Below, piece after piece: positions 36,809 to 57,582 of a stretch of 64,000 nt of DNA. Origin of the DNA: a bacterium (GTDB taxonomy: Bacteria; Patescibacteriota; Minisyncoccia; UBA6257; 02-FULL-45-10c); assembly GCA_030700025.1 (NCBI GenBank), contig JAUYKI010000017.1, positions 2,748 through 66,747 of the forward strand, written 5' to 3'. Below the pieces are notes generated by a model. It ran no database searches and had not been told where the DNA came from. It worked only from the letters and a program-made list of their open reading frames with translations. The position numbers were made by a program, and so were the translations under genes. Positions within the stretch are counted from its first letter, which is position 1; each line of letters starts with the position of its first letter.

Positions 36809-37543
36809 CTAGCGTGTTTTAGCAATTACCAACGCGATTATTTTTTTGGCGCCGGCGGATTTTAAAGTTTTAGCGGCTTCGCGGATAGTGGCTCCGGAAG
36901 TGTGAACGTCGTCAACGAGAAGGATATTTTTTCCCACTATCAGTTCTGGGTAATTAACCGCGAAGCAGTTAATCACATTTTGCGCCCGTTCTTCATGATT
37001 CTTGGCAAGCGACTGGGTTTTAGTATTTTTAATTCTTTGAATCGGCTCCGTTAAATCTAATTTATAAAAATCAGCAACAATTTTCGCAATCAATTTTGCC
37101 TGATTAAATCCGCGTTCTTTTTCCCGATCTTCGTGAAGCGGGATTGGAACCACGGTAAAATTTCTAATATCTAAATCCAAATTTCTAAGATACGAGACTA
37201 GAATTTCGCCTAATGGCCTTTGAAGCCGCTGCCATTTTTTAAATTTAAATAATTTCAGCAAAGTCCGGATGGAATCGTTATCGTAATTAGTGGCGGCGGC
37301 CAAAAGATAAGGAGAATCTTTATGGCAGACCTTTTTATTATCCGCCAGGCGCAATCCGCAAACCGGGCAAAAAAGCGAAGTATTGAGGCGGATGCCGGCC
37401 CAGCACTCCGGGCAAAGATCGCCTTCAGCGTTTTTTTGGCAGTTTAAGCAGAGCGGAGGAAAGAGGATGTCCCACAGCCAGGTTTTCATTTTTTGGAGAT
37501 AGCTCATGTCTGTTATACTAATAATAGATTTAGAATAAGGCAA
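36809..37543 (-). CDS. comFC: ComF family protein (double zinc ribbon plus phosphoribosyltransferase domain).
   Basis: N-terminal Cys clusters (CLNCQ...CPECW...CPVCG) and the PRTase motif ILLVDDVHTSGATI are seen. Confidence 0.75.
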   Translation of the reverse strand: MPYSKSIISITDMSYLQKMKTWLWDILFPPLCLNCQKNAEGDLCPECWAGIRLNTSLFCPVCGLRLADNKKVCHKDSPYLLAAATNYDNDSIRTLLKLFKFKKWQRLQRPLGEILVSYLRNLDLDIRNFTVVPIPLHEDREKERGFNQAKLIAKIVADFYKLDLTEPIQRIKNTKTQSLAKNHEERAQNVINCFAVNYPELIVGKNILLVDDVHTSGATIREAAKTLKSAGAKKIIALVIAKTR

Positions 37544-37750
37544 TGGATTCCAATAACTAATTTCTAATATCTAATTTCTAATAAAATGACCGAAATCACA
37601 AACCACAAGCACCAAATCACAAACAAGCACCAATGACCAAAATCATAAATTTAAAACCCGTTTGGAATTTCTATTATTTGAATTTAGAATTTGTTTGTAA
37701 TTTGAGATTTGTAATTTGGAATTTTATCAGAAATTGTAAATTGTAAATTT

Positions 37751-38812
37751 ATGTCTTTTTTTGAAAAACTTCTTCATAACAAAACTTATTTCGGCGTGGA
37801 TATCGGCACGACCTCTATTAAAATTGTGGAATTAAAACAGGGAGGCCAGAAGCCGGGCCTGAAAGATTATTGCGTTTTGGAAAGCTACGCGCATCTGGAA
37901 AAATTTAACGCGGCCATTCAAACCAGCAATTTAAAAATGCTGGACCAGAAAACCGCGGAATATTTGAAAACCGCGATTCAGCAGATAGAGTCTAAAGACA
38001 TTGAAGCCATTGCTTCGGTTCCGACTTTTTCCGCTTTTACTACTTTGATTGAAATGCCGGCTATGTCGGAGGCGGATACGAGCAAGGCCATGGCATTCCA
38101 GGTTAGGCAGTATGTTCCTTTGCCGATTTCGGAAGTAACCACCGACTGGATAAAAATTATGGAAAAAAAGGATTCTGCCGGCAATTTAATCCAGCAAGTT
38201 CTGCTGATTTCCATTCCGAATGAAATTATTAATAAGTATAAAAATGTTTTTCAGTTGGCGGGCGTGAAATTAATCGCTTTAGAAGTGGAAGGATTGAGTT
38301 TGGCGCGGGCGCTGACTCTTGGTTCGCCGGAAGTTTCGCTGATTGTGGATATCGGATCCCGGTCTACCAGTATTCTTATCGCCCAAAACGGCTTTTTGAA
38401 GTTTGTCAGCCAGACGGATTTCGCCGGCAGTTCCTTAACGCAGAATTTGGCTGCCGGAACCAGCCTTTCTCCGCAGGAGGCCGAAGAAATGAAACGGCAG
38501 AGGGGCATTGTCTCGGGGGAGTTATCCACACTGCTGATACCGGTGCTGGATGCTATAATAAATGAGACGAGACTAGTCAAGGAAGATTTTGAAAAGAACT
38601 ATAAAGAGCCGGTCCAAAAGCTTATTTTGACCGGAGGCGGGGCTAATCTGAGCGGCATTGAGAAGTACTTTGGCGAGCAATTGGGCTTGCCGGCCGTTAA
38701 GGGCAATCCGCTGTCACGGGTGGATTATCCGGAAGAATTAAACCCCTTGCTTGGAGAATTGAATAATACTTTGGCGATTGCCGCCGGACTCGCTTTAAGG
38801 GATGTACACTAG
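37751..38812 (+). CDS. pilM: Type IV pilus assembly protein PilM (actin-like ATPase fold).
   Basis: FGVDIGTTSIKIVEL N-terminus. A 353 aa protein with PilM architecture. Confidence 0.8.
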   Translation: MSFFEKLLHNKTYFGVDIGTTSIKIVELKQGGQKPGLKDYCVLESYAHLEKFNAAIQTSNLKMLDQKTAEYLKTAIQQIESKDIEAIASVPTFSAFTTLIEMPAMSEADTSKAMAFQVRQYVPLPISEVTTDWIKIMEKKDSAGNLIQQVLLISIPNEIINKYKNVFQLAGVKLIALEVEGLSLARALTLGSPEVSLIVDIGSRSTSILIAQNGFLKFVSQTDFAGSSLTQNLAAGTSLSPQEAEEMKRQRGIVSGELSTLLIPVLDAIINETRLVKEDFEKNYKEPVQKLILTGGGANLSGIEKYFGEQLGLPAVKGNPLSRVDYPEELNPLLGELNNTLAIAAGLALRDVH

Positions 38813-38830
38813 TTAAAAAAATAAATTGTA

Positions 38831-39373
38831 ATGGCGCTATTAAATCAAAAACCAATGGAGCACTACGTGCCGGAAACACCGGTTGCCGGAACACCGTGGC
38901 GCCTTTTTACTTACGCCGGATTGGCATTTTTGGCGTCTTTGTTGATTTATCTGGGATTAAGCATGGGCTATAGCGCTTACTTAAGTTCCCGGATTACCGC
39001 GGTGGAACAGCAATTAAAACAATTGGGAACTTCCATTTCCAAAGAAGATCAGGATAAGTTTGTCCGATTTTATTCCCAGCTGGTTAACTTTAATAAGCTT
39101 TTAGATAATCATATTTTATCCGCCGATACATTTTCTTTATTGGAAAAAAATACCAATCAAAAAGTCCGTTATACTAATTTTGATTTAAAAATTGACGAGC
39201 GGAAGCTTACTTTAGACGGTTCGGCTCTTTCTTATGAAATTTTGGCGCAACAGCTGGCGTCTTTTGCCGCCGATCCCGGCGTAGAGAACTACATGCTTAA
39301 TCAATCGCAAATGAGCGATGGAAGCGTAAAATTCAAGGCGGTATTAATATTAAAAAAGGAAGTTTTAAAATAA
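38831..39373 (+). CDS. pilN: PilN-like bitopic pilus assembly protein.
   Basis: Single N-terminal TM followed by a coiled coil. Position after pilM supports the call. Confidence 0.55.
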   Translation: MALLNQKPMEHYVPETPVAGTPWRLFTYAGLAFLASLLIYLGLSMGYSAYLSSRITAVEQQLKQLGTSISKEDQDKFVRFYSQLVNFNKLLDNHILSADTFSLLEKNTNQKVRYTNFDLKIDERKLTLDGSALSYEILAQQLASFAADPGVENYMLNQSQMSDGSVKFKAVLILKKEVLK

Positions 39374-39380
39374 GATGAAT

Positions 39381-39505
39381 CCCACACATAACAAAGACTA
39401 TAGGATATTTAAGCTAATAACTATGATAGTAGAATTAAAATGTCACATTAAATTAAAAGGCAAGGATTTGCGGAAAACTTCGCAGTCTTTGTTATGTGTG
39501 GGATG
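39381..39505 (+). promoter_or_regulatory. Inverted repeat (19-bp arms cccacacataacaaagact / agtctttgttatgtgtggg) enclosing the pilO 5' region. The right arm contains the pilO start codon.
   Basis: The arms sit about 85 nt apart. The ATG codons at 39494 and 39503 both lie within or adjacent to the right arm. Confidence 0.5.
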
Positions 39506-40078
39506 AAAGCTTCTACTCAAAGAGCCTTGGGATTGTTGGGAACCGGACTATTGTTTGTCGGAGCGGCGGCGATTTTTGCTTTTTTATCGGTTCCGGCTTA
39601 TCAGGACATCCAGGATTTGAAATCCACGCTGTCGTCTAAATCAACATTATTTCAAAATCAATCCCGCGATTTGACCCAGGTTCAAAACTTGTTATCGCAA
39701 TATCAGGGAGTGGTCCGGCTGGAAGAATCTTTAAATTTGGCTCTGCCTACCAAAGAAGAGTCCGGAAGCATCGTGAATCAGCTGGATGTTATTACTAAGT
39801 CCAACGGCGTTTTAATTAAATCCCTCGGGCTGGATTATGTTCCGGCCGGACGGACCGCCGGGACCGCTTTGGTAAAAAATGTTTCTACTTTGCGGCTGAC
39901 AATAAAATTAGCCGGTTCTTATTCCGCGTTTAAAAAAGCTTTAGCCGCGCTGGAAACCAATATTCGCATCATGGATTTAGTGAGTTTGAAGATGGAGCCG
40001 GTTAGCGCCGCGCCCGGCCAGGAATCCGCGGATTTATTTGATTACACCTTAGTTATTAATACTTATTATCAATTGTAA
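39494..40078 (+). CDS. pilO: PilO-like pilus assembly protein.
   Basis: N-terminal TM with a periplasmic-type domain. Position in the pilMNO set supports the call. Confidence 0.5.
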   Translation: MCGMKASTQRALGLLGTGLLFVGAAAIFAFLSVPAYQDIQDLKSTLSSKSTLFQNQSRDLTQVQNLLSQYQGVVRLEESLNLALPTKEESGSIVNQLDVITKSNGVLIKSLGLDYVPAGRTAGTALVKNVSTLRLTIKLAGSYSAFKKALAALETNIRIMDLVSLKMEPVSAAPGQESADLFDYTLVINTYYQL

Positions 40079-40101
40079 AATTTATTAGAGATTTAAATAA
40101 T

Positions 40102-40392
40102 ATGGCAATTACATTTGAAAAAGAAAAAAAACCGTTTGGCATTGTTCGGCTTGTTATCGTGATAGCGGCGGTGGTGTTTATTGTCGGCGGAGCCTACTTT
40201 TTATTCTTCGCTTCAACTCCGGGCATAGAAGCTTTAGTTCCTTCGGAACAAAGGTTAGCCACCCAGATTTCTAAATTAGAATTGAATACCCAGCCGGCCG
40301 TGGAAGCTTTTACTTCTAACCGCCTTAAAAGATACGCCGGTCCGCCTTCGGTTGGACAAGTTGGCAGATTAAATCCATTTGTCCGATTTTAG
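40102..40392 (+). CDS. Small N-terminally anchored protein, hypothetical (pilus-associated by position).
   Basis: 96 aa with one TM helix. Confidence 0.4.
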   Translation: MAITFEKEKKPFGIVRLVIVIAAVVFIVGGAYFLFFASTPGIEALVPSEQRLATQISKLELNTQPAVEAFTSNRLKRYAGPPSVGQVGRLNPFVRF

Positions 40393-40394: not shown

Positions 40395-40522
40395 ATGGAT
40401 CCCGTTAGAGATAGGCCGTCAAAGGCGGCCGTAGCTCGTCCGTTCTAATGGCGCTCAGAGTTTAAAATAAAAACAAAGGTTAATAATATAAATCTAATTT
40501 AGTTATCTCTAACGGGATGGAT
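40395..40522. repeat. 5'-UTR palindromic element atggatcccgttagag ... ctctaacgggatggat. Its right arm supplies the pilB start codon.
   Basis: The 16-bp arms sit about 95 nt apart and are of the same family as 1846-1963. Confidence 0.6.
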
Positions 40523-42250
40523 GCTCAAGTTTTACTTAAAGCTCTTGTTGATAAGGAACTTCTAAAACAGGATCAGGCGGATAAGCTGATTCAGGAATCT
40601 TCGGCTGGGCAAAAATCCGCTGAAGATTTAATTTACGAAAACCGGCTGGTGGACGAAACCGAAGTGGCGAAAACCAAAAGCCAGCTTTTAAAAATACCTT
40701 ATAAGAAAATTTCGGCGGATACTCTGGATAAAGAATTTTTAAAAGTTATTCCGATTGAAACCGCCCAAACTTATAAAATAATTCCTATTTCCCGGACGGA
40801 AAATATGCTGGTGGTGGGAATGGTGAATCCGGACGACCAAAAAGCCCAGGACGCGCTCCGGTTTGTCGCTAAGCAATTGCACTCCAATCTTGGAGTTTAT
40901 TTGATTTCACACGGCGATTTGGACGCAGTCTTAAAAAAATATTCTCCGTTTAAAGATGAAGTAGAAGCGGCAGTGCGGGCTTTGGGGACTAGGCCGGGCA
41001 GGAAAGTCGGCCAGGCAATTCAACTGGAAGAGGGAACCGCGGTTACGGAAGAAGCGCCGGTAATTAAAATTGTCGCTTCAACGCTTAGAGAAGCGGTCAA
41101 CGTCGGAGCTTCGGACATTCACGTTGAGCCAGAGCGGGAAAAATTCCGGATTCGTTTCCGGATTTCCGGAGATTTGCAGACCATCAGCGAAATGCCGATT
41201 GAATTGCACCAGCCGATAGTTTCCCGCATTAAAGTTATGTCCAAGTTAAAATTAGATGAAAACCGCGTTCCGCAAGACGGCCGGTTTCGCAGCCAGGTAT
41301 CGGGCCGGGACATTGATTTCCGGATCGCGACTTTTCCAACTCCAGCCGGAGAAAAAGTGGCAATCCGGGTTCTGGATTCTTCTACCGGCTTACGGACTTT
41401 AAATGAATTGGGATATAGCGATCGGAATGTAAAAATTGCCATGGAGGCGATTGAGCGCCCGTTTGGCACCGTGGTCATTACCGGTCCGACCGGTTCGGGA
41501 AAATCCACCACTCTTTATTCGTTGATGCAGATTTTAAATCAGCCGGACGTTAACATCGTCAGCTTGGAAGATCCGGTGGAGTATTATATTGACGGCGCCA
41601 ACCAGTCGCAGGTTCGGCCGGAAATCGGCTATGATTTCGCCGCCGGTTTGCGGCAAATTTTGCGGCAAGACCCGGACGTGATTATGGTTGGAGAAGTGCG
41701 GGACGTGGAAACTGCCACTTTGACCATCCACGCCGCTTTAACCGGACACATCGTATTAACCACCTTGCACACTAATAATGTAGTGGGCGTAGTGCCCCGC
41801 TTATTGGATTTAAAAGTAGACGCGTTTTTATTGCCGCCGGCGGTAAATTTGATGGTGGCCCAGCGCTTGCTTTCCAAGCTTTGCCCGAAATGCAAAAAGC
41901 CCGAACCTGCTCCGGGAAATATCGCCGAAATGATCAAAAAAGAATTGGAAAAATTGCCGGCAGACGTCAGGGCGGAATTAAAATCTAAAGAACCGTATAA
42001 AATCTATCGGTCGGCCGGATGCGCTTCTTGTAAAAATAAAGGGACAGCCGGGCGGATGGCCATTTCGGAGCTTTTAAAAATGACTCCACAATTGTCGGAA
42101 ATTATCAGCGCCGGCCCGACCGAGAACCGGATTTTAGAAGAGGCTAAGCGCCAAGGAATGGTAACGATGCGGCAAGACGGAATTATTAAAGCCCTGGACG
42201 GATTATTGGGAATGGAGGAGGTATTGCGAGAGACTGCGGAGCTGACCTAA
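40517..42250 (+). CDS. pilB: Type IV pilus assembly ATPase PilB (GspE family) with an N-terminal GspII domain and a C-terminal zinc-binding domain.
   Basis: Walker A GPTGSGKST, Asp and His boxes, and C-terminal CPKC...CASC are seen. Confidence 0.9.
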   Translation: MDAQVLLKALVDKELLKQDQADKLIQESSAGQKSAEDLIYENRLVDETEVAKTKSQLLKIPYKKISADTLDKEFLKVIPIETAQTYKIIPISRTENMLVVGMVNPDDQKAQDALRFVAKQLHSNLGVYLISHGDLDAVLKKYSPFKDEVEAAVRALGTRPGRKVGQAIQLEEGTAVTEEAPVIKIVASTLREAVNVGASDIHVEPEREKFRIRFRISGDLQTISEMPIELHQPIVSRIKVMSKLKLDENRVPQDGRFRSQVSGRDIDFRIATFPTPAGEKVAIRVLDSSTGLRTLNELGYSDRNVKIAMEAIERPFGTVVITGPTGSGKSTTLYSLMQILNQPDVNIVSLEDPVEYYIDGANQSQVRPEIGYDFAAGLRQILRQDPDVIMVGEVRDVETATLTIHAALTGHIVLTTLHTNNVVGVVPRLLDLKVDAFLLPPAVNLMVAQRLLSKLCPKCKKPEPAPGNIAEMIKKELEKLPADVRAELKSKEPYKIYRSAGCASCKNKGTAGRMAISELLKMTPQLSEIISAGPTENRILEEAKRQGMVTMRQDGIIKALDGLLGMEEVLRETAELT

Positions 42251-42284
42251 CCAATAACCGCCGACTAATGATATTATAAAGTGT

Positions 42285-43352
42285 ATGGCTGATTATAAGG
42301 CGAGATTAATAGATTTACTTTCCGAGGCGGTCAAGCAAGACGCTTCGGATTTGCATATTGCGGTAGGTCAAAAGCCGATGCTTCGGAAGGACGGAAGTTT
42401 GGTAGCTTTAGAAAGTGAATCGGTTCTGAACCCTAAGGACGCCGAAGGATTGGTGTTGGCGTTATTAAACCCTGATCAAAAAAACAAATTCTTGGAAGAA
42501 AAGCAGTTAGATTTTGCGTATGACCTGGATGGCAGAGCCAGGTTCCGTATTAACGCCTATTTTCAAAGAGGATTTATGTCGGCGGCGCTCCGTTTAATTT
42601 CGGCGAAAGTTAAAACATTGGAAGAATTGGGCTTGCCGATGGTGTTGAGGGAATTTGCCAAATTATCCCAAGGGCTCTTGCTGGCAGTCGGTCCGGCTGG
42701 ACAAGGAAAGTCCACGACTTTAGCGGTGGTAGTAGATGAAATCAATCGCCAGCGCGCCGACCATATTATTACCATTGAAGACCCGATTGAATATTTGTTT
42801 GAACAAAATAAAAGCATTATTTCCCAGCGGGAAGTTCGTTTGGATACTTTAACGTTTCACGACGCCTTGCGATCGGTTTTGCGGCAGGATCCGGATGCAA
42901 TTATGATCGGTGAAATGCGCGACGCGGAATCTATTGCCAGCGCTTTAACCGCCGCGGAAACCGGCCATTTGGTTCTTTCCACCTTGCATACTAATTCGGC
43001 TTCTCAGACTATTGACCGGATTGTGGATAGTTTTCCGTCCGGCCAGCAGCCGCAAATTATTTCTCAGCTGGCATCCACTTTGATAGGCATTGTTTCCAAA
43101 AGATTAATTCCTAAAATTGGCGGCGGACGGGTTCCGGCTTGCGAAATTATGATAATGAATCCGGCAATCCGGAATTTAATCCGGGAAAAGAAGTTTTTCC
43201 AGATAGATAACGTTATTGAAACCAGCAAAGGCGAGGGCATGATCAGCTTAAACCGTTCTTTATCGGAGCTGGTGAAGGCCAAGCAAATTACTCCGGCGAA
43301 CGCGGAATTATATTCCATTAGCCCGAAAGAATTAAAATTGATGTTAAAATGA
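42285..43352 (+). CDS. pilT: Twitching motility/retraction ATPase PilT.
   Basis: Walker A GPAGQGKSTT and a PilT-size protein (355 aa) are seen. It overlaps pilC by 4 nt. Confidence 0.88.
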   Translation: MADYKARLIDLLSEAVKQDASDLHIAVGQKPMLRKDGSLVALESESVLNPKDAEGLVLALLNPDQKNKFLEEKQLDFAYDLDGRARFRINAYFQRGFMSAALRLISAKVKTLEELGLPMVLREFAKLSQGLLLAVGPAGQGKSTTLAVVVDEINRQRADHIITIEDPIEYLFEQNKSIISQREVRLDTLTFHDALRSVLRQDPDAIMIGEMRDAESIASALTAAETGHLVLSTLHTNSASQTIDRIVDSFPSGQQPQIISQLASTLIGIVSKRLIPKIGGGRVPACEIMIMNPAIRNLIREKKFFQIDNVIETSKGEGMISLNRSLSELVKAKQITPANAELYSISPKELKLMLK

Positions 43353-45382: not shown

Positions 45383-45389
45383 GGATTTT

Positions 45390-50477: not shown

Positions 50478-53453
50478 ATGAATATCCGGAATTATAAATT
50501 TTTAATACTTTTCTTAATCGGCCTTTGGGGCGCCGGTAATTTGGCCTTTGCGCAAATTACGCCGGACCCTGGTGAGCACGCGGTTAGAGTTTATAAATCC
50601 GGCACCGGCAGTGGTTTGGTAACAGACCAGTATTCCCAAATTGACTGCGGGAACGATTGCCAGGGGAATTATATTGGGGCTGCTTCCACCTGGGTTACTT
50701 TGGAACCTTTTCCTTCTCCTAACAGCTCTTTTGCCGGTTGGTACGGTTGTGACTCCGTAAATACCATGGTTATATTGCCTGATTTGCCGACTTGCTCAGT
50801 TAATACGAGCCCCTTCGTTCCTAGATCAGTTAACGCGATTTTTAACTCTAACACCCCGTGGCATCAAGCTAAATTAACCGTGACTACATCGGGCGATGGC
50901 GGGGGATCGGTATTTTCCAATCCCGGATTTATCAGTTGCGGAGCGGTTTGTTCCGATAATTTTTCGAATCCTTCTTATCCTTTATTTACCGCCACTCTTA
51001 TCAACACCGGTTCCTTAGGGTCATTTACCAATCAGCAGGTAATACATATTGTTGATAGCAGTGGTAGAATCACAGTGGGCGGAAATAGGCTTCAGACCCT
51101 CAATTCGGAAGGTGTGACCAATCCTCAGCAAACTATTATTGACATAGCGGACGGATTTATAAACGTATCGCCGACTATTAAATATATTTACGCGCTGGGA
51201 TATAGGGGGAGTGGAAATATTGCTGAATATCTTTTGGACGTGATTAATCCTTCTGCTCCTCAGGGAGCGCAAGCTAGTGCGCCAGAGGTGGTGAATCGTA
51301 TTCCGCTCCCCATAGATTCAACTGGAGGGGAAGATTACAGCGTTTACTCTAAAATTGCTCTGGCCGGAAATTTTGTTTATATAACTCGTTGGTCAGGAAC
51401 TTCGGTCAGCGCGGGTGGCAGTGGAGGCGCTTTATTGATTTTTGATATATCTGATCCGTTGAATCCGGCGCAGGTCGGGTTCATTGCTCCCCGCTTCAGT
51501 CCTGGCTATGGAATCGCGGCGATTAATAATCCTTTTATTGGAAATTATGCTTATATGGGACAGCAGCATCAGTTCTCTGTAATTGATGTTTCCAGTCCGG
51601 CTAGTCCGGCAGTTGTCGGCACTGTCGGCGGCACCGGCCTATTTAAGGGCGTTTTTAATGAAGTGGCTGAAGCCTTTCCGTATGTTTATGTTTCCAGCGT
51701 GAATGCTTCGGATAATTCCAATACGCTTTATATTATAGACGTTAGTAAGCCGAACAGCCCGGCGTTGATTAGCGCGACACCGATTGATTATTTTAACGGC
51801 GATTTAAGGCCGGCCGTCGGAGGAAAGCTTCTTTTTATCGGTTCCACGGTTTATGATGTTTCTGATCCGTTTCATCCCAGAAAAATCGGCCAAGGGCCGG
51901 GAGGCGTTCAATATGGGGGCGATACTTCTTTTCAAGTTGGAAGTTTGAATGAAGGCAATGATTATGTTGTAACCGGAACCAACGCTACGGGATTCGGCAT
52001 CTACTCGATTAAAAGAACTTTTGTTACGGGTACTGGTTGGGTTCCCACTTATGACCTTTTATCTTTTGCTCCCGGATTGGGAATTTATCCTAACCCGACT
52101 GTTAGTTTATCCGGAGAGCCGGAAGACGATTCGATTTTGGGCGCTTGGTCCGGAGATGTTCCGGGAACTTGCGCCAACAACGCGTCGTGTTTAGTAACTG
52201 CTGTTTTGGGCGCGGAAACTAACGCAGATGCCAGATTTGATGCCGCCGCGGCGCTCGCGCCTACTTCGGCAACTTTAACCGTTACTAAATCCGGAAATGG
52301 ATCCGGCCATGTATCTGATTCGGCTTTGGATTCTTCTTCGTTAGGCGGCGCTTCTTTGGGCGGCGGATCATTGGGTTTTGTTTCCGGGGGAATTGATTGC
52401 GGCGGGGATTGCGATGAAACTTACCCAACGGACACCAGCGTAATTCTTTTGGCAACGCCAAGCGCCGGATCGGATTTTGTAAAATGGAATGGCTGTGTAA
52501 TCGGTGCGGTAATGAAAGATGACGGAGCGCTTTGGAATCCGGCTACTTTGGCGGCTAAACAATCTAACGGCGCTAATGCTTGGGACGGAAGAAATTACAG
52601 CGCCTTGGCTTTCCAAAACAAGCTTTGGGTTTTAGGAGGCGGGAGCACCTTAGGCCAAGTATGGTATTCGGCTGACAACGGCATTACTTGGGCGCAGTAT
52701 ACTCGGGCCTTTATCGCTCCGTCGTCGTGGGCTCCGTGGTGGTCAACTAAATTCGGATTCTCGGCGTTGAGCTACGGAACCAAGATGTGGGTTTTGGGCG
52801 GAACGGAGGGCGGTAGTTCTTATACTAATGAAGTTTGGAGTTCTTTTGACGGCCAAAATTGGAGTCAGGGGCTGAATGCCGATTGGTCTCCGCGGGTTAA
52901 CTTTGCCGCAACCAGATTTAACGGCTCTATGTGGGTATTGGGCGGAAATGCTAAAGAAAATAATAGTTTTGTAAATAAAAATGATGTCTGGTCTTCGGTT
53001 GGCAGTTCCGGATATTGGAGTCCTGTAAATGTATCTGCCGCTTGGTCTGCCCGACAAGGCCATGCCGCAGTCGCTTTTAATGGCCAATTATGGGTTTTAG
53101 GCGGATTGGACGCGGGCGGTTATAAGAATGACGTTTGGTCATCTTCCAACGGAACTGATTGGATTCAAAAAAATTCTTCGGCGCCTTGGCCGGCTCGGGC
53201 TTTTCATAAAGTTTTGGTTTTTGATAATAAACTTTGGGTGATGGGCGGTTCGGGCTCTTTTCAGCCGGCCGATTTTAAAAATGATGTGTGGTATTCCGTG
53301 GACGGCGTTAATTGGATTCAGTCGGGATTGGCGGATTGGCCGGCTCGGTTTGATTTTGGCGCTACGGTTTTCAATAATAAAATGTGGATTTTGGGCGGAA
53401 CGGTCGGGTCCAATTTATATGTAAATGACGTTTGGTATTCGGCGGCGCATTAA
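50478..53453 (+). CDS. Giant secreted protein with N-terminal InlB-B-like repeats, a central beta-rich region and C-terminal Kelch beta-propeller repeats.
   Basis: A signal peptide is seen. Kelch-type repeats (W..ARxxH..VFNxKxWVxGG) occur six or more times at the C-terminus. The start lies 2 nt after the previous stop. Confidence 0.7.
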   Translation: MNIRNYKFLILFLIGLWGAGNLAFAQITPDPGEHAVRVYKSGTGSGLVTDQYSQIDCGNDCQGNYIGAASTWVTLEPFPSPNSSFAGWYGCDSVNTMVILPDLPTCSVNTSPFVPRSVNAIFNSNTPWHQAKLTVTTSGDGGGSVFSNPGFISCGAVCSDNFSNPSYPLFTATLINTGSLGSFTNQQVIHIVDSSGRITVGGNRLQTLNSEGVTNPQQTIIDIADGFINVSPTIKYIYALGYRGSGNIAEYLLDVINPSAPQGAQASAPEVVNRIPLPIDSTGGEDYSVYSKIALAGNFVYITRWSGTSVSAGGSGGALLIFDISDPLNPAQVGFIAPRFSPGYGIAAINNPFIGNYAYMGQQHQFSVIDVSSPASPAVVGTVGGTGLFKGVFNEVAEAFPYVYVSSVNASDNSNTLYIIDVSKPNSPALISATPIDYFNGDLRPAVGGKLLFIGSTVYDVSDPFHPRKIGQGPGGVQYGGDTSFQVGSLNEGNDYVVTGTNATGFGIYSIKRTFVTGTGWVPTYDLLSFAPGLGIYPNPTVSLSGEPEDDSILGAWSGDVPGTCANNASCLVTAVLGAETNADARFDAAAALAPTSATLTVTKSGNGSGHVSDSALDSSSLGGASLGGGSLGFVSGGIDCGGDCDETYPTDTSVILLATPSAGSDFVKWNGCVIGAVMKDDGALWNPATLAAKQSNGANAWDGRNYSALAFQNKLWVLGGGSTLGQVWYSADNGITWAQYTRAFIAPSSWAPWWSTKFGFSALSYGTKMWVLGGTEGGSSYTNEVWSSFDGQNWSQGLNADWSPRVNFAATRFNGSMWVLGGNAKENNSFVNKNDVWSSVGSSGYWSPVNVSAAWSARQGHAAVAFNGQLWVLGGLDAGGYKNDVWSSSNGTDWIQKNSSAPWPARAFHKVLVFDNKLWVMGGSGSFQPADFKNDVWYSVDGVNWIQSGLADWPARFDFGATVFNNKMWILGGTVGSNLYVNDVWYSAAH

Positions 53454-53456: not shown

Positions 53457-55103
53457 ATGGAAAACTGGAAACAAAAAATTTATTTATTGTTGGCGTTGGC
53501 GGGAATTGGATTTATCGCGGGAACCGTTTTTGCCGCGGATGCCGGGGTTCGCTGGTTTCAAACCGATCCGGTCGCCGGGGCAATCTGGACTGCCAGAAAC
53601 GGACACTCGGCTCTGGTTTTTAACAACAAAATGTGGATTTTAGGAGGAACTCTCTCGCCGGGTTATAAAAATGATGTTTGGCTTTCTTTTAATGGCATCA
53701 ATTGGGTTCAACGGACTCCGTCCGCCGCGTGGCAGGCCAGGACCGAACACGCGTCCCTAGTCTTTAATAATAAAATGTGGGTTTTGGGAGGATCTATCTC
53801 GACGGGTTTTAAAAATGATGTTTGGTCTTCCGCGGATGGATTTACTTGGAATTCAGAAACTGCCGCGGCCGCCTGGCCGGCAAGAGATCGCCACGCGTCC
53901 CTAGTTTTTAATAATAAAATGTGGATTTTAGGAGGATCTACCTCGGCGGGTTCGAAAAATGACGTTTGGTCTTCCGTGGACGGAATTACTTGGACGCAAG
54001 AAACTGCTTCCGCCGGCTGGTCTCCGCGTTTCGACTTAGTAGCTCTCGTTTTTAATAACAAGATGTGGGTTTTAGGCGGCAGTGGTTCTCTGAATGATGC
54101 TTGGTCTTCTTCAGATGGAGTTACGTGGACCAGGGTCAGTCCGGCAATTGGCGCTGATTGGCCGGGGCGGTCCGGGCATACCGGAGTGGTTTATGACGGA
54201 AAAATGTGGATTTTTGGCGGACAAAGAGCAAATACCATTTTTAATGATGCTTGGTATTCCGTGGACGGAATAAGTTGGTCTCAGGCGTTATTAGCGGCTG
54301 ATTCTCAATGGGGCGCCCGATGGAATCACGCTTCTTTAGTCTTTAATAATAAAATGTGGATTTTGGGCGGTTCTGGCGGCCCTAATAAAAATGATATTTG
54401 GCATTCCCAGCAGGATAATCTTCCGGTGGAAGCGTGCGTGATTACCAGTGATAGAAATCGGACTGTTGACGCGGAATTTAAAGGCCAGCTTTATACGGTT
54501 ACGGTGGTTAGCATTAATCAGGACGGAGCCGGAAAAGGCGCGGTTAGTTCCACGGATAATAAAATCAGCGATTGCCAAACGATTTGTTCCGCCGAAAATT
54601 ATGCTTACAATTCCAGTGTTGCTTTAAACGCCATGGCCGCCGACGGTTCGGAATTTGACCATTGGGAAGGGCCAAGCCCTTGCGATAACAGCGCCGAATT
54701 GAGCTGTTCTTTGACTTTAACCGGCGATGTAACTGTTTACGCGGTATTTAAATCGTTGATGGCCGCTTGCGTGGTGGAAAAATCAGTTACCGCGAACTTT
54801 GCCACTTCTTTTCCGACTTGTACGCTGACGATTGCTCCGCAAGGAACAAATGCCAGTCAGGCAATTATTTCTTGGACCACCACTAATAATCCGACTAGCG
54901 CTGTTATAGATGATGGCGTTGGTGCGCCAGTAGCGGTGACTATCCCGCCGGCCAGCGGTAGCATGACGATTACTCCGCCTGGCAACACTACTTATATTAT
55001 GACCGTCACGAATAACGCCGGCAGCCGCACTTGCAGCGCTCAGGCTTCAGCGGCGCCCGGAAGATTTCAATTTAAAGATATTCGCGAAATTCTCCCGTTT
55101 TAG
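53457..55103 (+). CDS. Kelch-repeat beta-propeller protein with a C-terminal InlB-B-like repeat and Ig-like domain.
   Basis: An N-terminal TM/signal is followed by 8 Kelch repeats (VFNNKMWILGG). The DNA shows near-identical intragenic repeats. Confidence 0.7.
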   Translation: MENWKQKIYLLLALAGIGFIAGTVFAADAGVRWFQTDPVAGAIWTARNGHSALVFNNKMWILGGTLSPGYKNDVWLSFNGINWVQRTPSAAWQARTEHASLVFNNKMWVLGGSISTGFKNDVWSSADGFTWNSETAAAAWPARDRHASLVFNNKMWILGGSTSAGSKNDVWSSVDGITWTQETASAGWSPRFDLVALVFNNKMWVLGGSGSLNDAWSSSDGVTWTRVSPAIGADWPGRSGHTGVVYDGKMWIFGGQRANTIFNDAWYSVDGISWSQALLAADSQWGARWNHASLVFNNKMWILGGSGGPNKNDIWHSQQDNLPVEACVITSDRNRTVDAEFKGQLYTVTVVSINQDGAGKGAVSSTDNKISDCQTICSAENYAYNSSVALNAMAADGSEFDHWEGPSPCDNSAELSCSLTLTGDVTVYAVFKSLMAACVVEKSVTANFATSFPTCTLTIAPQGTNASQAIISWTTTNNPTSAVIDDGVGAPVAVTIPPASGSMTITPPGNTTYIMTVTNNAGSRTCSAQASAAPGRFQFKDIREILPF

Positions 55104-55129: not shown

Positions 55130-55256
55130 GCAACATCTCTTTAAGGGAACATCCCGCAGGCGTATTTTGCTTGGACCACAAAATACGCCGAGGGCGAAGA
55201 AAATCCGGCCGCTGGAGCCGGATTATTCTGTTTCCCAAAAAAGAGATGTTGCTAAG
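55130..55256. repeat. Long compound palindrome (about 127 nt) downstream of the Kelch gene.
   Basis: The outer stem is agcaacatctcttt / aaagagatgttgct. Inner hairpins are ggcgtattttg...caaaatacgcc and aatccggc...gccggatt. Confidence 0.5.
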
Positions 55257-55363: not shown

Positions 55364-56008
55364 ATGCGAAAGATGATTTGTTCGGGCTTGATGGCCACGG
55401 CGTTAGTGGTTTTGTCGGCAGTTCCGGTTTTGGCTAATGACGACGAAGAAGTTTTGTTGGACAGCGAAGATACTTCCAGCACCGAATATACCGGAGTCAG
55501 AGAAATGTCTCTGGGCGCCCGGCTGTTTCCTTACGCGCCTTTGCGCGGCGGCATGGATTTCTTGTGGCGTCCCAAGTGGGGAATTTGCGCGGCCCAGATT
55601 GAAAACATCAATTATACCGCGGAAGTAAATGGCCAGCCGATTCATTGTACCGGCGCTGAACTTCATTTCGGCGGCGGCATCTGGTCCAATATGGAAAAAA
55701 CTAATTGGTGGGGCTATCATATTTATTTCAGCATGGTTTGGCCGCTAACGTGGGTTAGGAACGTTCAGGGTTCGACTAGATTTGCTTTTGGTAATGGAAA
55801 ATCTTTGGGCCTCGGATTGGATTTTTATCCGCGCATTTGGCGGGGTGGAACGATTGTTAGAGGAGATAAATTTGTCAGTTATTTCGCGGACGTTCAAGCG
55901 GCTTCCCGGTTATTGATAGTAGACTGGGGAGGTCAGCACAGCGACCGATTCTCATCTTCTATGTTTAAAAATATCACTTTCCAGGTCGGAGCCAGATACT
56001 GGTTTTAA
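55364..56008 (+). CDS. Secreted hypothetical protein.
   Basis: 214 aa with a signal peptide. It is preceded by the conserved leader hairpin shared with the gene at 35820. Confidence 0.5.
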   Translation: MRKMICSGLMATALVVLSAVPVLANDDEEVLLDSEDTSSTEYTGVREMSLGARLFPYAPLRGGMDFLWRPKWGICAAQIENINYTAEVNGQPIHCTGAELHFGGGIWSNMEKTNWWGYHIYFSMVWPLTWVRNVQGSTRFAFGNGKSLGLGLDFYPRIWRGGTIVRGDKFVSYFADVQAASRLLIVDWGGQHSDRFSSSMFKNITFQVGARYWF

Positions 56009-56118
56009 ACTTTAAATAAGCCCCCCGACCCCCATCCTAATGGGGGCTTTGCTTTTTTAGAAGAATAATGTTATTTTATTAACAGTTTTCAGAACTTTAA
56101 AAACTCAAGGAGATAAAA

Positions 56119-57093
56119 ATGAAAACGACAGCGCTGGCGTTGATTTTGCTGGCCGGATCTGCCGGGGCAACAATTGGAACTAATTCCGGATTAACCGCGC
56201 TTTATATTTCTGGCAGTGAAATTTACGTCACGAGCGCTTCGACCAATACCGTAAAAATCTTCCGTTTTTCTCCGCCGTCAACTTTAGCGCAGGTCGGGAT
56301 TCCTGCCTCCACGGATCAGGAACCGGTCTTTATTTCGGTTCCAAACCCCTATGCTTATGTTTTGAATCGGGGAGCCAAGACATTGCAGACCTTTATCGCG
56401 GACGATAATTTCTTATTGCCATTAGGATCGGTTCCGGTCGGATTTAATCCGACTTCGGCCGTGGTTCGGATACCGCATATTCTTATTACTAATTCCGGAT
56501 CTAATTCTTTGCAGGCGCTGGATGTTTCCTGCAATTCCCGCCCGGTAACTATCGGGCGAATTTCTACCGGTTCGGTTCCGACATCGTTATACGCGGAGGG
56601 AAAATATGCTTTTGTGACTTGTTCCGGAGAAGATCTGTATCAGATTTTTAATATCGGCAAATTGCGGTGGGGAATATCATTAACCGGATCAATTAAGACC
56701 GATGAGGGTCCGGTGGCAAGTTATGTGGCGGGTCCGAATGCTTTCGTCATTAATACGATTGCCAATACTCTGCAGGCGTTCAATGTTTCTGATCCGGTGA
56801 AGCCCGCGGAATTAGGCTGGGTTCGCACTAGCGTGGGCCCGATTGCGATTACTGGCAGCGGAAACTTATTATTTGTCGCTTGCCGGTTTTCCAATACTTT
56901 GGAAATTTTTGACGCGTCTAATCCCGCGAAAATGGTTTTGCTTCACGGGATTGGCGTGGATTACGGCCCAACGGCAGTAGCGGTCAATGGCCCCTATGCC
57001 TTTGTGGCTTCCCACAAAATGCTCCAAGTGTTTGACGTTTCCGATCCGCTTCGCAAACCGCCGGTTCTGGTCGCTTCCATTACAGTGAATTAA
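56119..57093 (+). CDS. Secreted LVIVD-repeat beta-propeller protein.
   Basis: A signal peptide is followed by repeated motifs (YAFV...TLQAFNVSDP, LEIFDASNP, LQVFDVSDP) typical of LVIVD repeats. Confidence 0.65.
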   Translation: MKTTALALILLAGSAGATIGTNSGLTALYISGSEIYVTSASTNTVKIFRFSPPSTLAQVGIPASTDQEPVFISVPNPYAYVLNRGAKTLQTFIADDNFLLPLGSVPVGFNPTSAVVRIPHILITNSGSNSLQALDVSCNSRPVTIGRISTGSVPTSLYAEGKYAFVTCSGEDLYQIFNIGKLRWGISLTGSIKTDEGPVASYVAGPNAFVINTIANTLQAFNVSDPVKPAELGWVRTSVGPIAITGSGNLLFVACRFSNTLEIFDASNPAKMVLLHGIGVDYGPTAVAVNGPYAFVASHKMLQVFDVSDPLRKPPVLVASITVN

Positions 57094-57099
57094 AGTTTA

Positions 57100-57133
57100 T
57101 TCCCCCTAGACTGCGGTCAGGGGGAATTTTTAT
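57100..57133 (+). terminator. Rho-independent terminator. A solo family-1 terminus (attaggataggttctt) follows at 57127-57150.
   Basis: The hairpin ttccccctagactgcggtcagggggaa is followed by tttttatt. Confidence 0.65.
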
Positions 57134-57162
57134 TAGGATAGGTTCTTGGTATAATTTAAGTA

Positions 57163-57582
57163 ATGAGAAATGAACGCGGGCAGGTAATGCTCTTAACTGT
57201 TTTGCTTTTATCTGGAACTATTTTAAGCGCCACTACCATTGCCGGCTTATTAATGCTTTATCAAATCCGCCAAGCAACGGATATCGCCAATTCTACCAAA
57301 GCTATTTATGCCGCGGACACGGGGATAGAAAGGCGGGTATATGATATTTTTCTGGATCCGGACGGCCTTTGCAGTTTAAGCGAGCCATCGTTAGACGGCA
57401 CTTTAGACAATGGCGCCGCTTTTCAAGTAGCTTGTGATAAGCAAACTCAGACCAACGCTGATGGCAGCAAAACGGAGACTATCACTATCAGATCTACCGG
57501 CAATGCCAATAAAAATTATCGAGCGCTGGAGACGGTTTTGGCTAGAGATATTCCACCTCCGCCGCCTCCACTGGCGCCTTAA
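57163..57582 (+). CDS. PilX-N-like minor pilin or pilus-associated protein with a Pro-rich C-terminus.
   Basis: MRNERGQVMLLTVLLLSGTIL resembles the PilX N-terminal domain. It ends PPPPPPLAP. Confidence 0.5.
   Translation: MRNERGQVMLLTVLLLSGTILSATTIAGLLMLYQIRQATDIANSTKAIYAADTGIERRVYDIFLDPDGLCSLSEPSLDGTLDNGAAFQVACDKQTQTNADGSKTETITIRSTGNANKNYRALETVLARDIPPPPPPLAP

What the first reader, a model, noticed from the sequence alone, without database searches (positions are those of the whole stretch)
36809..57582. The competence/type IV pilus locus is fused to an operon of three giant secreted proteins built from InlB-B-like repeats and Kelch propellers. This is a candidate pilus-linked adhesin system.
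The locus runs comFC, pilMNO, pilB, pilT, pilC, the pilin gene, pilD and three minor pilins. These are followed by an operon of secreted proteins of 799, 991 and 548 aa with stop-start spacings of 1-3 nt. An LVIVD propeller protein and a PilX-like protein follow. The repeat type (Cys-containing modules of about 85 aa) and the Kelch propellers are typical of surface adhesins.

In small-genome episymbiotic bacteria, T4P are implicated in host attachment and DNA uptake. Co-localised giant adhesin-like proteins would be the host-contact component.
Basis: partly seen in the sequence, partly recalled or inferred. Interest (0 to 1): 0.5.

Follow-up and report, generated by a model that had tools for sequence, protein, structure and literature searches.

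The report
Propeller-adhesin cassette inside a pilus operon
In a small clade of ultrasmall (CPR/Paceibacteria) bacteria, a block of genes for secreted stalk-and-propeller proteins has been inserted into the tip-subunit (minor pilin) operon of their type IV pilus, which makes these proteins good but unproven candidates for the part of the pilus that grips a host cell.

Summary
The gene order is comFC, pilMNO, pilB/T/C, pilin, pilD and three minor pilins. Three tightly coupled genes follow (gaps of 1 and 3 nt). They encode Sec-type secreted proteins built from 4-Cys InlB-B-like (Flg_new_2) repeats of about 84 aa, an LVIVD propeller and six-bladed Kelch propellers.

Corrections: the proteins are large, not giant. 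The minor pilins lie on the opposite strand.

New findings:
- In cassette-less Paceibacteria relatives the PilX-like gene directly follows the third minor pilin. The 9-kb block is therefore an insertion into the minor-pilin operon, roughly where pilY1 sits in Pseudomonas.
- The cassette occupies this slot in at least five lineages, while its big proteins diverge to about 31% identity.
- One rare promoter motif precedes the minor pilins, the cassette and pilX.
- PilX-like proteins of the three cassette lineages where the gene was recovered have a polyproline tail.
- One repeat module is split between two adjacent proteins, and the Cys counts suggest disulfide-linked assembly.

Best reading: a pilus-associated, fast-evolving host-binding complex, working like PilY1 or TM7x PilX2 (confidence about 0.45). 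No experiment supports this yet.

The parts
36809..37543 (-). comFC (double zinc ribbon plus phosphoribosyltransferase), divergent from pilM
   Evidence: Pfam DZR_2 E 7e-11 and Pribosyltran E 1e-8. Found in the same position in relatives.
37751..40392 (+). pilM, pilN-like, pilO and a conserved 96-aa ORF (alignment subcomplex)
   Evidence: PilM_2 E 1e-35 and PilO E 2e-4. The PilN-like gene and the 96-aa ORF rest only on orthology and position in 15 or more relatives.
40517..44557 (+). pilB (extension ATPase), pilT (retraction ATPase), pilC (platform)
   Evidence: T2SSE E 2e-122 and E 3e-47; T2SSF E 1e-55.
44933..46175 (+). major pilin (149 aa) and prepilin peptidase pilD
   Evidence: N_methyl E 3e-9; A24_N_bact plus Peptidase_A24.
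46301..47806 (-). Three minor pilins: mp169 (GspJ/ComGF-like), mp167 (PilV-like) and mp174 (GspH-like). The likely true start of mp174 is the ATG at 47788. The block is inverted relative to the ancestral order.
   Evidence: N_methyl and NCBIfam hits. The genes are on the + strand after pilD in L002 and in 14 or more relatives, and inverted in the window, L001 and L120.
47791..47800 (-). TATAATCTAA promoter motif, ending 2 nt before the mp174 ATG (leaderless-type)
   Evidence: The motif occurs 4 times in 64 kb against 0.8 expected. Sequence context. It is ancestral in front of mp174 in relatives.
47837..48049 (+). Conserved small ORF (70 aa, one hydrophobic helix)
   Evidence: 73% aa identity to the L001 ORF. 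Substitutions by codon position are 13/7/23.
48064..48073 (+). TATAATCTAA promoter motif, ending 3 nt before the A799 ATG
   Evidence: It forms a 29-nt inverted repeat with the mp174 copy (pair I2).
48077..50476 (+). A799: signal peptide, a unique N-terminal domain (aa 25-130) and eight B-repeats. The last repeat (aa 728-799) lacks the final strand and carries a fifth Cys (ends ...CVINFTQCQ).
   Evidence: Flg_new_2 E 1e-44. Repeat HMM. 35 Cys, conserved in the orthologues. AF2 model of one repeat has pLDDT 94.
50478..53453 (+). B991: signal peptide; repeat r1; repeat r2 with an LVIVD propeller inserted (about aa 185-535, bases 51030-52082); N-terminal two-thirds of repeat r3 (aa 598-673, bases 52269-52496, ending at Cys3); six-bladed Kelch propeller (aa 690-991).
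   Evidence: Pfam LVIVD and Kelch. Repeat HMM. The AF2 Kelch part has pLDDT 70-89 and Foldseek TM about 0.76 to 6-bladed Kelch domains. 11 Cys, an odd number.
53457..55103 (+). C548: signal peptide; Kelch propeller (aa 30-312); orphan C4-hairpin of a B-repeat (aa 322-341, bases 54420-54479); full repeat (aa 351-431); second orphan strand CVVEKSVTANF (aa 438-448, within the aa 436-449 segment, bases 54762-54803); Ig-like domain (aa 450-533); conserved tail ...KDIREILPF.
   Evidence: Pfam. HMM alignment. Regex test. The tail and the CVVEKSV motif are conserved in L117, P0092 and P0111. The Ig-like domain is a common repeat.
55202..55224 (+). Terminator-like hairpin after C548, followed by a promoter-like site at 55261-55289
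   Evidence: Consensus scan only.
55364..56008 (+). D214: secreted beta-rich protein with no known family, ending ...ARYWF
   Evidence: No Pfam or NCBIfam hit. Only two homologues in 5.8 billion proteins. Adjacent to the C548 orthologue in L117. A divergent copy is in L120.
56119..57093 (+). E324: secreted LVIVD-repeat propeller protein, the best-conserved member of the cassette
   Evidence: LVIVD at 43.1 bits. 61% identical to the L120 copy and 47% to the L119 copy.
57150..57159 (+). TATAATTTAA promoter motif, ending 3 nt before the F139 ATG
   Evidence: Cassette-less relatives have no such promoter in front of this gene.
57163..57582 (+). F139: PilX/GspK-like fourth minor pilin (GQxMxL, hydrophobic helix, AxYAADxGxE) with a polyproline tail (aa 128-139)
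   Evidence: Alignment A2. PilX_N in 4 of 13 orthologues. The Pro-rich tail is present only in cassette lineages.
57614..59665 (+). ligA, the conserved downstream boundary of the pilus locus
   Evidence: Pfam. It directly follows the PilX-like gene in the relatives where both genes are on the recovered contig.

Best explanation
This is a lineage-specific accessory cassette of the type IV pilus in a small Paceibacteria (CPR) clade. Its genes are a small ORF, A799, B991, C548, D214 and E324. It is inserted into the minor-pilin operon between the third minor pilin and the PilX-like fourth one.

Proposed mechanism:
1. The products are exported by Sec.
2. A799 is a rod of eight disulfide-braced B-repeat stalk modules, with a unique N-terminal domain.
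3. B991 and C548 carry the ligand-binding heads: one LVIVD and two six-bladed Kelch propellers.
4. The three proteins probably assemble with each other. One B-repeat module is split between B991 and C548, and A799 and B991 each have one unpaired Cys.
5. The complex is made together with the pilus-priming minor pilins, because all three units share the same promoter motif.
6. It is displayed on or handed over by the pilus tip complex, where it binds a surface ligand of a host cell, probably a glycan.

In function it would be an analogue of PilY1 and of the propeller-bearing PilX2 of Saccharibacteria, but it is homologous to neither.

Shown: the gene content, the domains, the insertion site, the conservation of synteny, the promoter motif, and the split module at sequence level.

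Inferred: assembly of the three proteins, attachment to the pilus, and binding to a host.
For: 1. Domains typical of extracellular binding proteins. The single repeat folds at pLDDT 94 into an 8-strand beta module. Its nearest solved folds, weakly, are the stalk B domains of the adhesins SdrD and UafA. The Kelch part matches six-bladed Kelch domains.

2. Insertion site. In 9 or more cassette-less relatives the PilX-like gene follows the third minor pilin within 25 nt, and ligA comes next.

3. The cassette is in the same slot in the window, L001, L002, L119 and L120. Across these, PilC and PilT stay 68-72% identical while A, B and C fall to about 31% and are rearranged. In L002 pilD, the minor pilins and the cassette all lie on one strand.

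4. TATAATYTAA occurs 4 times in 64 kb (0.8 expected; 0 of 100 shuffles reach 4). Three of the copies end 2-3 nt before the ATGs of mp174, A799 and F139.

5. The PilX-like protein has a Pro-rich tail in the three cassette lineages where it was seen, and in none of 12 others.

6. A second, independent association: a secreted Kelch protein sits next to comFC at a Paceibacteria pilus locus (L063).

7. Precedent: the beta-propeller of TM7x PilX2 is needed for host binding (PMC11623550).

8. Split module. B991 repeat r3 stops at Cys3. The missing Cys4 hairpin follows the Kelch propeller of C548. The pattern for that hairpin has 0 hits in 20.6k background residues. The odd Cys counts are conserved in the orthologues.
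Against: - A799, B991 and C548 have ordinary Sec-type N-termini with no prepilin motif or pilin domain. Any pilus contact must therefore be non-covalent and is unobserved.
- There is no Pfam similarity to PilY1.
- None of the 18 closest relatives by PilC has the cassette, so the pilus works without it.
- The same slot holds an M16 peptidase and other secreted proteins in L004, and Lnt in L010. It may simply tolerate insertions.
- In the window the cassette has its own promoter-like and terminator-like sites and is not co-transcribed with the minor pilins.
- All cassette lineages are probably one clade, so the synteny and the Pro-tail correlation may trace back to a single event.
- The same Kelch subtype is widespread in secreted proteins that have no pilus genes nearby.
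Confidence: 0.45

Rival explanations
1. These are pilus-independent surface or secreted binding proteins that lie in a permissive insertion site. The gap between the third minor pilin and pilX tolerates foreign DNA. The cassette landed there once in an ancestor and has been inherited since. The proteins act as free or envelope-associated lectin-like proteins unrelated to the pilus.
For: - The slot carries unrelated genes in other lineages: an M16 peptidase in L004 and Lnt in L010.
- RT-like insertions lie nearby in L012 and L019.
- The cassette has its own promoter-like and terminator-like sites.
- There is no pilin domain.
- The Kelch subtype occurs in about 80 metagenome loci, almost all without pilus genes, many with T9SS-like or lipoprotein ends.
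Against: - Adjacency survives an inversion of the minor-pilin block, gene reshuffling (the order of D and E differs between the window and L120) and divergence of A, B and C to 31% identity.
- A rare 10-nt promoter motif is shared with mp174 and F139.
- The Pro-rich tail on PilX is restricted to the cassette clade.
- A second Kelch gene sits at another edge of a related pilus locus (L063).
Confidence: 0.3
2. These are cargo of the pilus machine rather than a tip adhesin. After Sec export, the proteins are pushed through the cell envelope by the growing pilus. Docking on the tip minor pilins is only transient, as with the type IVb pilus substrates CofJ and TcpF. The proteins then act as released colonisation or host-modifying factors.
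For: - They are encoded inside the pilus locus, like tcpF and cofJ (PMC9565799, PMC6048534, PMC10120004).
- They have Sec signal peptides and no membrane or wall anchor.
- A conserved short terminal peptide (...REILPF) on the C-type protein could be a docking signal.
Against: - A 30-nm-class rod of eight stalk repeats and disulfide-linked assembly fit a displayed structure better than a diffusible factor.
- The known T4bP substrates use an N-terminal signal. No similarity to CofJ or TcpF was found in the Pfam, NCBIfam or PDB searches.
- The machinery here is T4a-like, with PilT and PilMNO.
Confidence: 0.15
3. The Kelch and LVIVD proteins are extracellular enzymes or sugar-processing proteins (galactose-oxidase-like or mutarotase-like), and the B-repeats serve only as spacers.
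For: Weak NCBIfam hit of C548 to the cyclically permuted mutarotase family (E 1e-3, 18 bits against a cut-off of 243). Some bacterial Kelch propellers are enzymes (own knowledge).
Against: The scores are far below the family cut-offs. No catalytic domain was found. The best structural matches are ligand-binding Kelch domains.
Confidence: 0.05

Closest known systems
PilY1 / PilC of type IVa pili (Pseudomonas, Neisseria, Myxococcus)
   Same: A large Sec-exported non-pilin protein with a beta-propeller, encoded within the minor-pilin operon. PilY1 forms the priming and tip complex with the minor pilins and acts as an adhesin (Treuner-Lange 2020, as cited in PMC11623550; own knowledge). The gene position matches: among GspH/I/J/K-like minor pilins, next to pilX.
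   Different: There is no sequence similarity: no PF05567 hit at E <= 0.1. The propellers are of other types (Kelch, LVIVD). There are several proteins rather than one. B-repeat stalks are present. The organism belongs to the CPR, which is thought to lack an outer membrane (own knowledge), and no secretin gene was seen among the locus genes examined. The cassette is dispensable in most relatives, whereas PilY1 is usually needed for piliation.
PilX2 of Nanosynbacter lyticus TM7x (Saccharibacteria)
   Same: A CPR type IV pilus component with a beta-propeller that is experimentally required for efficient host binding and is proposed to be a glycan-binding tip adhesin (PMC11623550).
   Different: PilX2 is itself a (non-canonical) pilin with a fused 7-bladed RCC1 propeller. 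Here the PilX-like protein is only 139 aa, and the propellers sit on separate secreted proteins. The phylum-level lineage also differs (Paceibacteria).
Modular pilins PilB/PilC of Streptococcus sanguinis
   Same: Adhesive modules are added to a type IV pilus in a bacterium without an outer membrane (PMC8179133, listed).
   Different: Those modules are grafted covalently onto pilin domains. A799, B991 and C548 have no pilin domain.
CofJ-CofB and TcpF-TcpB (type IVb pili)
   Same: Secreted non-pilin proteins encoded in the pilus operon that dock on the tip minor pilin through a short terminal peptide (PMC6048534, PMC9565799, PMC10120004).
   Different: Those are T4b systems of Gram-negative pathogens, with small single-domain cargo and an N-terminal docking peptide. 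No homology was found.
B-repeat stalks of Gram-positive surface adhesins (InlB B-repeat / Flg_new_2; SdrD, UafA B domains)
   Same: Tandem beta modules of about 80 aa that project a binding head away from the cell. There is a Pfam Flg_new_2 match and weak fold similarity.
   Different: There is no LPXTG or other wall anchor. Each module carries two putative disulfides (4 Cys). Propellers are inserted inside modules, and one module is split between two genes.

Membership tests
Flg_new_2 / divergent InlB B-repeat (PF18998) | Sequence match above the Pfam gathering score; tandem beta modules of about 75 aa | tested here: met
   A799 scores 150 bits against a cut-off of 23.6, in 7 stretches. C548 scores 25.6 bits. 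B991 is below the cut-off in Pfam (13.3 bits) but is found by the repeat HMM built here. The AF2 model of one unit is all-beta, pLDDT 94.
Kelch beta-propeller (PF01344, PF24681) | Kelch motifs above the cut-off that form a six-bladed propeller | tested here: met
   B991 scores 77.6 bits and C548 96.4 bits against a cut-off of 20.1. The model region aa 700-990 has pLDDT 70-89, with Foldseek E 6e-18 and TM 0.76 to the LZTR1, KLHL12 and Keap1 Kelch domains.
LVIVD repeat (PF08309) | LVIVD repeats above the cut-off | tested here: met
   B991 scores 40.9 bits and E324 43.1 bits against a cut-off of 20.2. The propeller fold was not confirmed: that part of the B991 model has low confidence.
Type IVa pilus machinery | PilM/N/O, PilB, PilT, PilC, PilD, a pilin with a prepilin motif, and a minor-pilin set | tested here: met
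   Pfam hits for all except PilN, which is assigned by position and orthology. The minor pilins give GspH-, PilV- and GspJ-like hits.
PilX / GspK-like minor pilin (PF14341 PilX_N) | N-terminal hydrophobic helix without Glu5, followed by the AxxAAExG motif; match to PilX_N | tested here: inconclusive
   The window protein has no Pfam hit. Four of 13 orthologues hit PilX_N, best E 3e-5. The motifs GQxMxL and AxYAADxGxE are conserved. A profile of the family finds nothing in the PDB.
PilY1 / Neisseria PilC (PF05567) | Sequence homology to the PilY1 C-terminal propeller | tested here: not met
   No such family appears among the Pfam hits of A799, B991, C548 or E324 at E <= 0.1. The resemblance lies only in gene position, size class and the presence of a propeller.
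Modular type IV pilins (pilin domain plus grafted module) | Prepilin leader with G/FxxxE and a hydrophobic N-terminal helix on the same chain as the adhesive module | tested here: not met
   The N-termini of A799, B991 and C548 are Sec-type signal peptides, with no N_methyl hit.
Sortase- or lipid-anchored surface adhesins (LPXTG, lipobox) | C-terminal LPXTG plus a TM segment, or a lipobox Cys | tested here: not met
   There is no TM-like segment beyond aa 40, no lipobox and no LPXTG. The C-termini are ...TQCQ...YSAAH and ...REILPF.
Candidate Phyla Radiation / Paceibacteria origin | Phylogenetic placement of the genome | tested here: inconclusive
   The source record is named only 'bacterium'. 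The closest PilC relatives (51-61% identity) and the shared locus synteny are in Paceibacterota, Harrison-, Wolfe-, Jorgensen- and Colwellbacteria MAGs. No marker-gene phylogeny was run.
Donor-strand / split-domain assembly (as in chaperone-usher pili) | An incomplete beta domain on one chain is completed by a strand from another chain | not testable with these tools
   Sequence only. B991 repeat r3 lacks the Cys4 hairpin, and C548 has an orphan copy of it. A799 repeat r8 lacks its last strand.

The most novel reading that the evidence does not exclude
A799, B991 and C548 build a disulfide-locked heteromeric tip fibre by complementation between chains.
- The truncated B-repeat of B991 (it ends at Cys3) would be completed by the orphan Cys4 hairpin that follows the Kelch propeller of C548.
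- The strand-deficient last repeat of A799 (with an extra Cys) would be completed by the highly conserved CVVEKSV(T/L)AxF strand of C548.
- The complex would dock on the PilX-like minor pilin through that pilin's clade-specific polyproline tail, perhaps via the conserved LVIVD protein E324.

This would be a new way of mounting an exchangeable, fast-evolving adhesin on a type IV pilus: type IV pilus biology combined with donor-strand logic known from chaperone-usher pili.
Probability: 0.15. Interest if true: 0.8.

Novelty: new variant of a known kind. Interest (0 to 1): 0.55.

Why it matters
How uncultivated CPR bacteria recognise and hold their hosts is largely unknown. The only experimental handle is the propeller-bearing pilin PilX2 of oral Saccharibacteria.

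This locus offers a concrete and testable candidate for the host-contact module of a Paceibacteria pilus. It shows that such modules can be separate secreted proteins, slotted into the minor-pilin operon, that evolve several-fold faster than the machine itself.

The split repeat module, the odd Cys counts, the shared promoter motif and the polyproline tail on PilX each give a specific prediction for structure prediction or biochemistry.

If the assembly model is right, it would add a new architecture to the known ways of arming type IV pili.

Tried and rejected
- **Exact look-up of B991 and of its database twin P0001:** not on record.
- **Homologue search with C548 aa 305-548:** no hit, not even to itself. 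That search was wasted.
- **Metagenome scan with the B991 alignment:** it returned only the generic Kelch part (aa 682-989) in 80 loci. No further full-length relatives appeared, and no case of a Kelch propeller inserted in a B-repeat within one chain.
- **AF2 of full B991 with a 3-sequence alignment:** mean pLDDT 45. Only the Kelch part is usable, so the LVIVD propeller, the domain insertions and the truncated repeat could not be inspected.
- **PDB sequence searches:** nothing with A799 or with the PilX-like profile.
- **C-terminal motif [KR]E[IV]xP as a general tag of 'slot' proteins:** only C548 and L004-632 match the pattern, so I do not claim this. Within the C548 family the tail REI(L/S)PF is conserved.
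- **Read-through fusion of B991 and C548 (they share a frame in the window):** rejected. They are in different frames in L002, and C548 has its own conserved signal peptide.
- **Recent horizontal transfer judged from composition:** GC is 0.46-0.49 against 0.42-0.47 around it, too small a difference to argue from.

Full report

Yes. Pfam confirms the following:
- ComFC, PilM, PilO, PilB, PilT, PilC, a pilin, PilD, and the prepilin motif in two of the three minus-strand minor pilins.
- 799-aa protein: Flg_new_2 (divergent InlB B-repeat), E 1e-44, seven stretches.
- 991-aa protein: LVIVD (40.9 bits) and Kelch (E 5e-22).
- 548-aa protein: Kelch (E 1e-31) and Flg_new_2.
- 324-aa protein: LVIVD (43.1 bits).

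The gene junctions are TAA-t-ATG and TAA-aat-ATG with no Shine-Dalgarno sequence. The three genes are therefore translationally coupled.

An HMM built from the repeats finds eight units of 78-85 aa in the 799-aa protein (A799). The first seven have exactly four Cys and the truncated eighth has five. All five downstream proteins have a Sec-type N-terminal hydrophobic segment, no other TM segment, no lipobox and no LPXTG.

- The proteins are large, not giant.
- The minor pilins are on the opposite strand.
- PilN is assigned by position only.
- The 139-aa 'PilX-like' protein (F139) has no Pfam hit itself. However, 4 of its 13 orthologues hit PilX_N, and the family keeps the GQxMxL helix and the AxYAADxGxE motif.
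- Two genes were overlooked. One is a conserved 70-aa ORF (47837-48049), whose codon-position substitution pattern of 13/7/23 against L001 is typical of coding sequence. The other is a 214-aa secreted protein (D214).

**2. Whose genome is it?**

The 991-aa protein (B991) is identical to a protein of an NCBI MAG that is labelled only 'bacterium'. The closest PilC sequences among GTDB species representatives are 51-61% identical. They come from Paceibacterota: Harrison-, Wolfe-, Jorgensen- and Colwellbacteria MAGs. This supports a CPR origin by taxonomy. An episymbiotic lifestyle is not shown.

**3. The key comparative result**

I mapped the window proteins onto 18 related loci. The ancestral order is:

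comFC(-) | pilM N O orf96 B T C A D | three minor pilins | PilX-like | ligA

All genes after comFC lie on one strand. In at least nine relatives the PilX-like gene starts within 25 nt of the third minor pilin.

In the window, about 9 kb (48077-57093: A799, B991, C548, D214, E324) lies between the third and fourth minor pilins, and the three minor-pilin genes are inverted. None of the 18 relatives has B-repeat, Kelch or LVIVD genes in its pilus locus. The block is therefore an insertion into the minor-pilin operon. The slot is roughly where pilY1 sits next to pilX in Pseudomonas (own knowledge).

**4. Is the link to pilus genes conserved?**

B991 has only two full-length homologues among 5.8 billion proteins.
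- Both lie next to the minor pilins, followed by the start of a C548 orthologue (L001, 67% identity; L002, 42% identity).
- In L002, pilD, the minor pilins and the cassette are co-directional.

A sensitive search with the C-terminus of C548 found two more relatives. Their contigs show the same design:
- **L120** (GCA_040961635.1): pilB, pilT, pilC, pilin, pilD | three inverted minor pilins | 260-aa, 1239-aa and 1347-aa B-repeat/Kelch proteins | E324 orthologue | D214-like | PilX-like | ligA, gatC, gatA.
- **L119:** B-like, C-like, E324 orthologue, PilX-like.
- **L117:** C548 and D214 orthologues adjacent.

Identities between the window and L120:

| Protein | Identity |
|---|---|
| PilT | 72% |
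| LigA | 71% |
| PilC | 68% |
| PilD | 63% |
| E324 | 61% |
| Minor pilins | 47-56% |
| F139 | 52% |
| A799, B991, C548 | about 31%, with domains reshuffled |
| D214 | 27% |

The large proteins evolve much faster than the machine, as expected for proteins that contact a variable partner. E324 behaves like a core component.

Separately, another Paceibacteria-type pilus locus (L063) has a secreted 574-aa Kelch protein between leuS and comFC.

**5. Regulatory link**

The 10-mer TATAATYTAA occurs four times in the 64-kb window. The chance expectation is 0.8, and 0 of 100 shuffles reach four. Three copies end 2-3 nt before the ATGs of mp174, A799 and F139, each as an extended -10 element (TGnTATAAT). 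This is the geometry of a leaderless promoter.

Relatives have a TATAAT at the same distance in front of the first minor pilin. They have none in front of the PilX-like gene, which is coupled to the preceding gene. The mp174 and A799 copies form a 29-nt inverted repeat.

My inference is that the minor-pilin promoter was copied when the cassette was inserted, so the three transcription units remain co-regulated. Terminator-like hairpins follow C548 and D214 (consensus matches only).

**6. Anatomy of the proteins**

*The repeat module.* AF2 of one repeat, using an alignment of 42 repeats, gives pLDDT 94 and eight beta strands. Cys1 and Cys2 lie four residues apart, and Cys3 and Cys4 flank a hairpin. 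The nearest solved folds match only weakly (E 0.06-0.2). They are stalk B domains of the adhesins SdrD and UafA and a Pediococcus adhesion exoprotein.

*A799.* It consists of a signal peptide, a unique conserved N-terminal domain and eight repeats. The last repeat lacks the long final strand and ends ...CVINFTQCQ with a fifth Cys. This ending is conserved in L001 and L002. A similar ending occurs in L120, in the 260-aa protein and at the repeat-Kelch junction of the 1239-aa protein.

*B991.* It consists of a signal peptide, repeat r1, repeat r2 with the LVIVD propeller inserted between its halves, and repeat r3 only as far as Cys3, followed by a six-bladed Kelch propeller.

*C548.* It consists of:
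- a signal peptide and a Kelch propeller;
- an orphan segment VEACVITSDRNRTVDAEF, which is exactly the Cys4 hairpin plus final strand that B991 repeat r3 lacks;
- one complete repeat;
- a second orphan strand, CVVEKSVTANF, nearly invariant across lineages that are otherwise 31-45% identical;
- a common Ig-like domain;
- a conserved tail REI(L/S)PF.

A pattern for the Cys4 hairpin finds every complete repeat plus the C548 orphan, and nothing in 20.6k background residues.

*Cys counts.* A799 has 35 Cys in all three orthologues. B991 has 11, and its orthologues have 11 and 15. All of these are odd. C548 has 8, including two single Cys in the orphan segments. L120 shows the same odd/odd/even pattern.

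The most economical reading is that the three proteins assemble through complementation of incomplete modules and through inter-chain disulfides. I could not test this.

**7. A correlated change in the pilus itself**

The PilX-like protein ends in a Pro-rich tail in the three cassette lineages where it was recovered:
- Window: DIPPPPPPLAP.
- L119: LPKLPPPSPPAA.
- L120: LIPPPPCPPPAP.

None of the 12 cassette-less orthologues has such a tail. This may be a docking site. Because the cassette lineages probably form one clade, it counts as a single evolutionary observation.

**8. Mechanism and rivals**

My best explanation (confidence about 0.45) is a pilus-associated host-binding complex that is made together with the priming minor pilins and displayed at the tip. 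It would work like PilY1 and like PilX2 of TM7x. In TM7x, loss of the propeller-bearing pilin halves host binding, and glycans are implicated (PMC11623550).

It is not a member of either family. There is no PilY1 homology and no pilin domain.

Rivals:
- **Unrelated secreted lectin-like proteins in a permissive slot (0.3).** Supported by the M16 peptidase and Lnt found in the same slot in L004 and L010, and by the wide distribution of this Kelch subtype away from pilus genes.
- **Pilus-dependent secreted cargo in the manner of CofJ/TcpF (0.15).** Precedents: PMC6048534, PMC9565799, PMC10120004.
- **Extracellular enzymes (0.05).**

**9. Novelty**

I found no paper that links Parcubacteria or Paceibacteria pili with Kelch, LVIVD or B-repeat proteins. 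The general idea of a propeller adhesin on a CPR pilus is published for Saccharibacteria only.

This locus is a new variant. The adhesin candidates are separate Sec-secreted proteins inserted into the minor-pilin operon, with propellers nested inside stalk modules and one module split between two genes.

All of this is computational, and it concerns a small clade known only from MAGs and short contigs.

Noticed in passing
window 27661-28140 (+): The fourth copy of the TATAATTTAA promoter motif precedes about 470 nt that have no ORF. This stretch folds far better than shuffled sequence (-171 kcal/mol, z = -7.5). Rfam gives no match even at E <= 1. It is a candidate unannotated structured RNA and contains a GGAAAGUC stretch reminiscent of RNase P RNA.
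   Followed up: partly
window 47837-48049 (+): A 70-aa ORF with one hydrophobic helix lies between the minor pilins and A799. It is 73% identical to an ORF at the same place in L001, and its substitutions are biased to third codon positions (13/7/23). L002 has no room for it.
   Followed up: partly
window 55364-56008 (+); also P0043, P0044, L120:15335-15943: D214 is a secreted, beta-rich protein of about 200 aa with no known family. It ends ...R(Y/C)WF, which looks like the C-terminal beta-signal of outer-membrane barrels. That is odd for a CPR bacterium, which is presumed to lack an outer membrane. The L004 slot holds a 199-aa secreted protein that ends ...LIFYW.
   Followed up: partly
window 57544-57579 (F139 aa 128-139); L119:6516-6938; L120:15931-16410: A polyproline-rich C-terminal tail on the PilX-like minor pilin is found only in the cassette-bearing lineages.
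   Followed up: partly
L004:14459-18337 and L010:14208-19468: In Harrisonbacteria and Wolfebacteria relatives the same slot holds other genes: an M16 peptidase, Lnt, small secreted proteins, and large secreted proteins of 632 and 780 aa with no Pfam family. The two large proteins share a C-terminal Ig-like domain (blastp E 5e-6).
   Followed up: partly
L012:14653-15681 and L019:13090-13695: Wolfebacteria relatives carry extra DNA between pilD and the first minor pilin. In L012 this includes a reverse-transcriptase-like ORF of 342 aa, judged by eye from its N-terminal sequence.
   Followed up: no
L002:1354-2238: The third minor pilin is called as one ORF together with an upstream PD-(D/E)XK_3 domain (precomputed Pfam). 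This is probably an inserted gene or a mis-called start.
   Followed up: no
L038:9722-11062: A 446-aa Kelch protein of the same subtype has a pilin-like N-terminus (MNKKTLTLIEIVIA...). It sits next to pilC and two pilB-like genes in what appears to be a different kind of bacterium. It may be a Kelch module fused to a pseudopilin. The residue before the putative cleavage site is not Gly.
   Followed up: partly
L013:2614-4587: A 657-aa protein with a prepilin motif and an ALK/LTK glycine-rich domain lies just upstream of pilM in a relative. It is another kind of large pilus-locus accessory protein.
   Followed up: no
window 69-1781 (+): A 570-aa protein with DUF11 repeats, another likely surface protein elsewhere in the window.
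   Followed up: no
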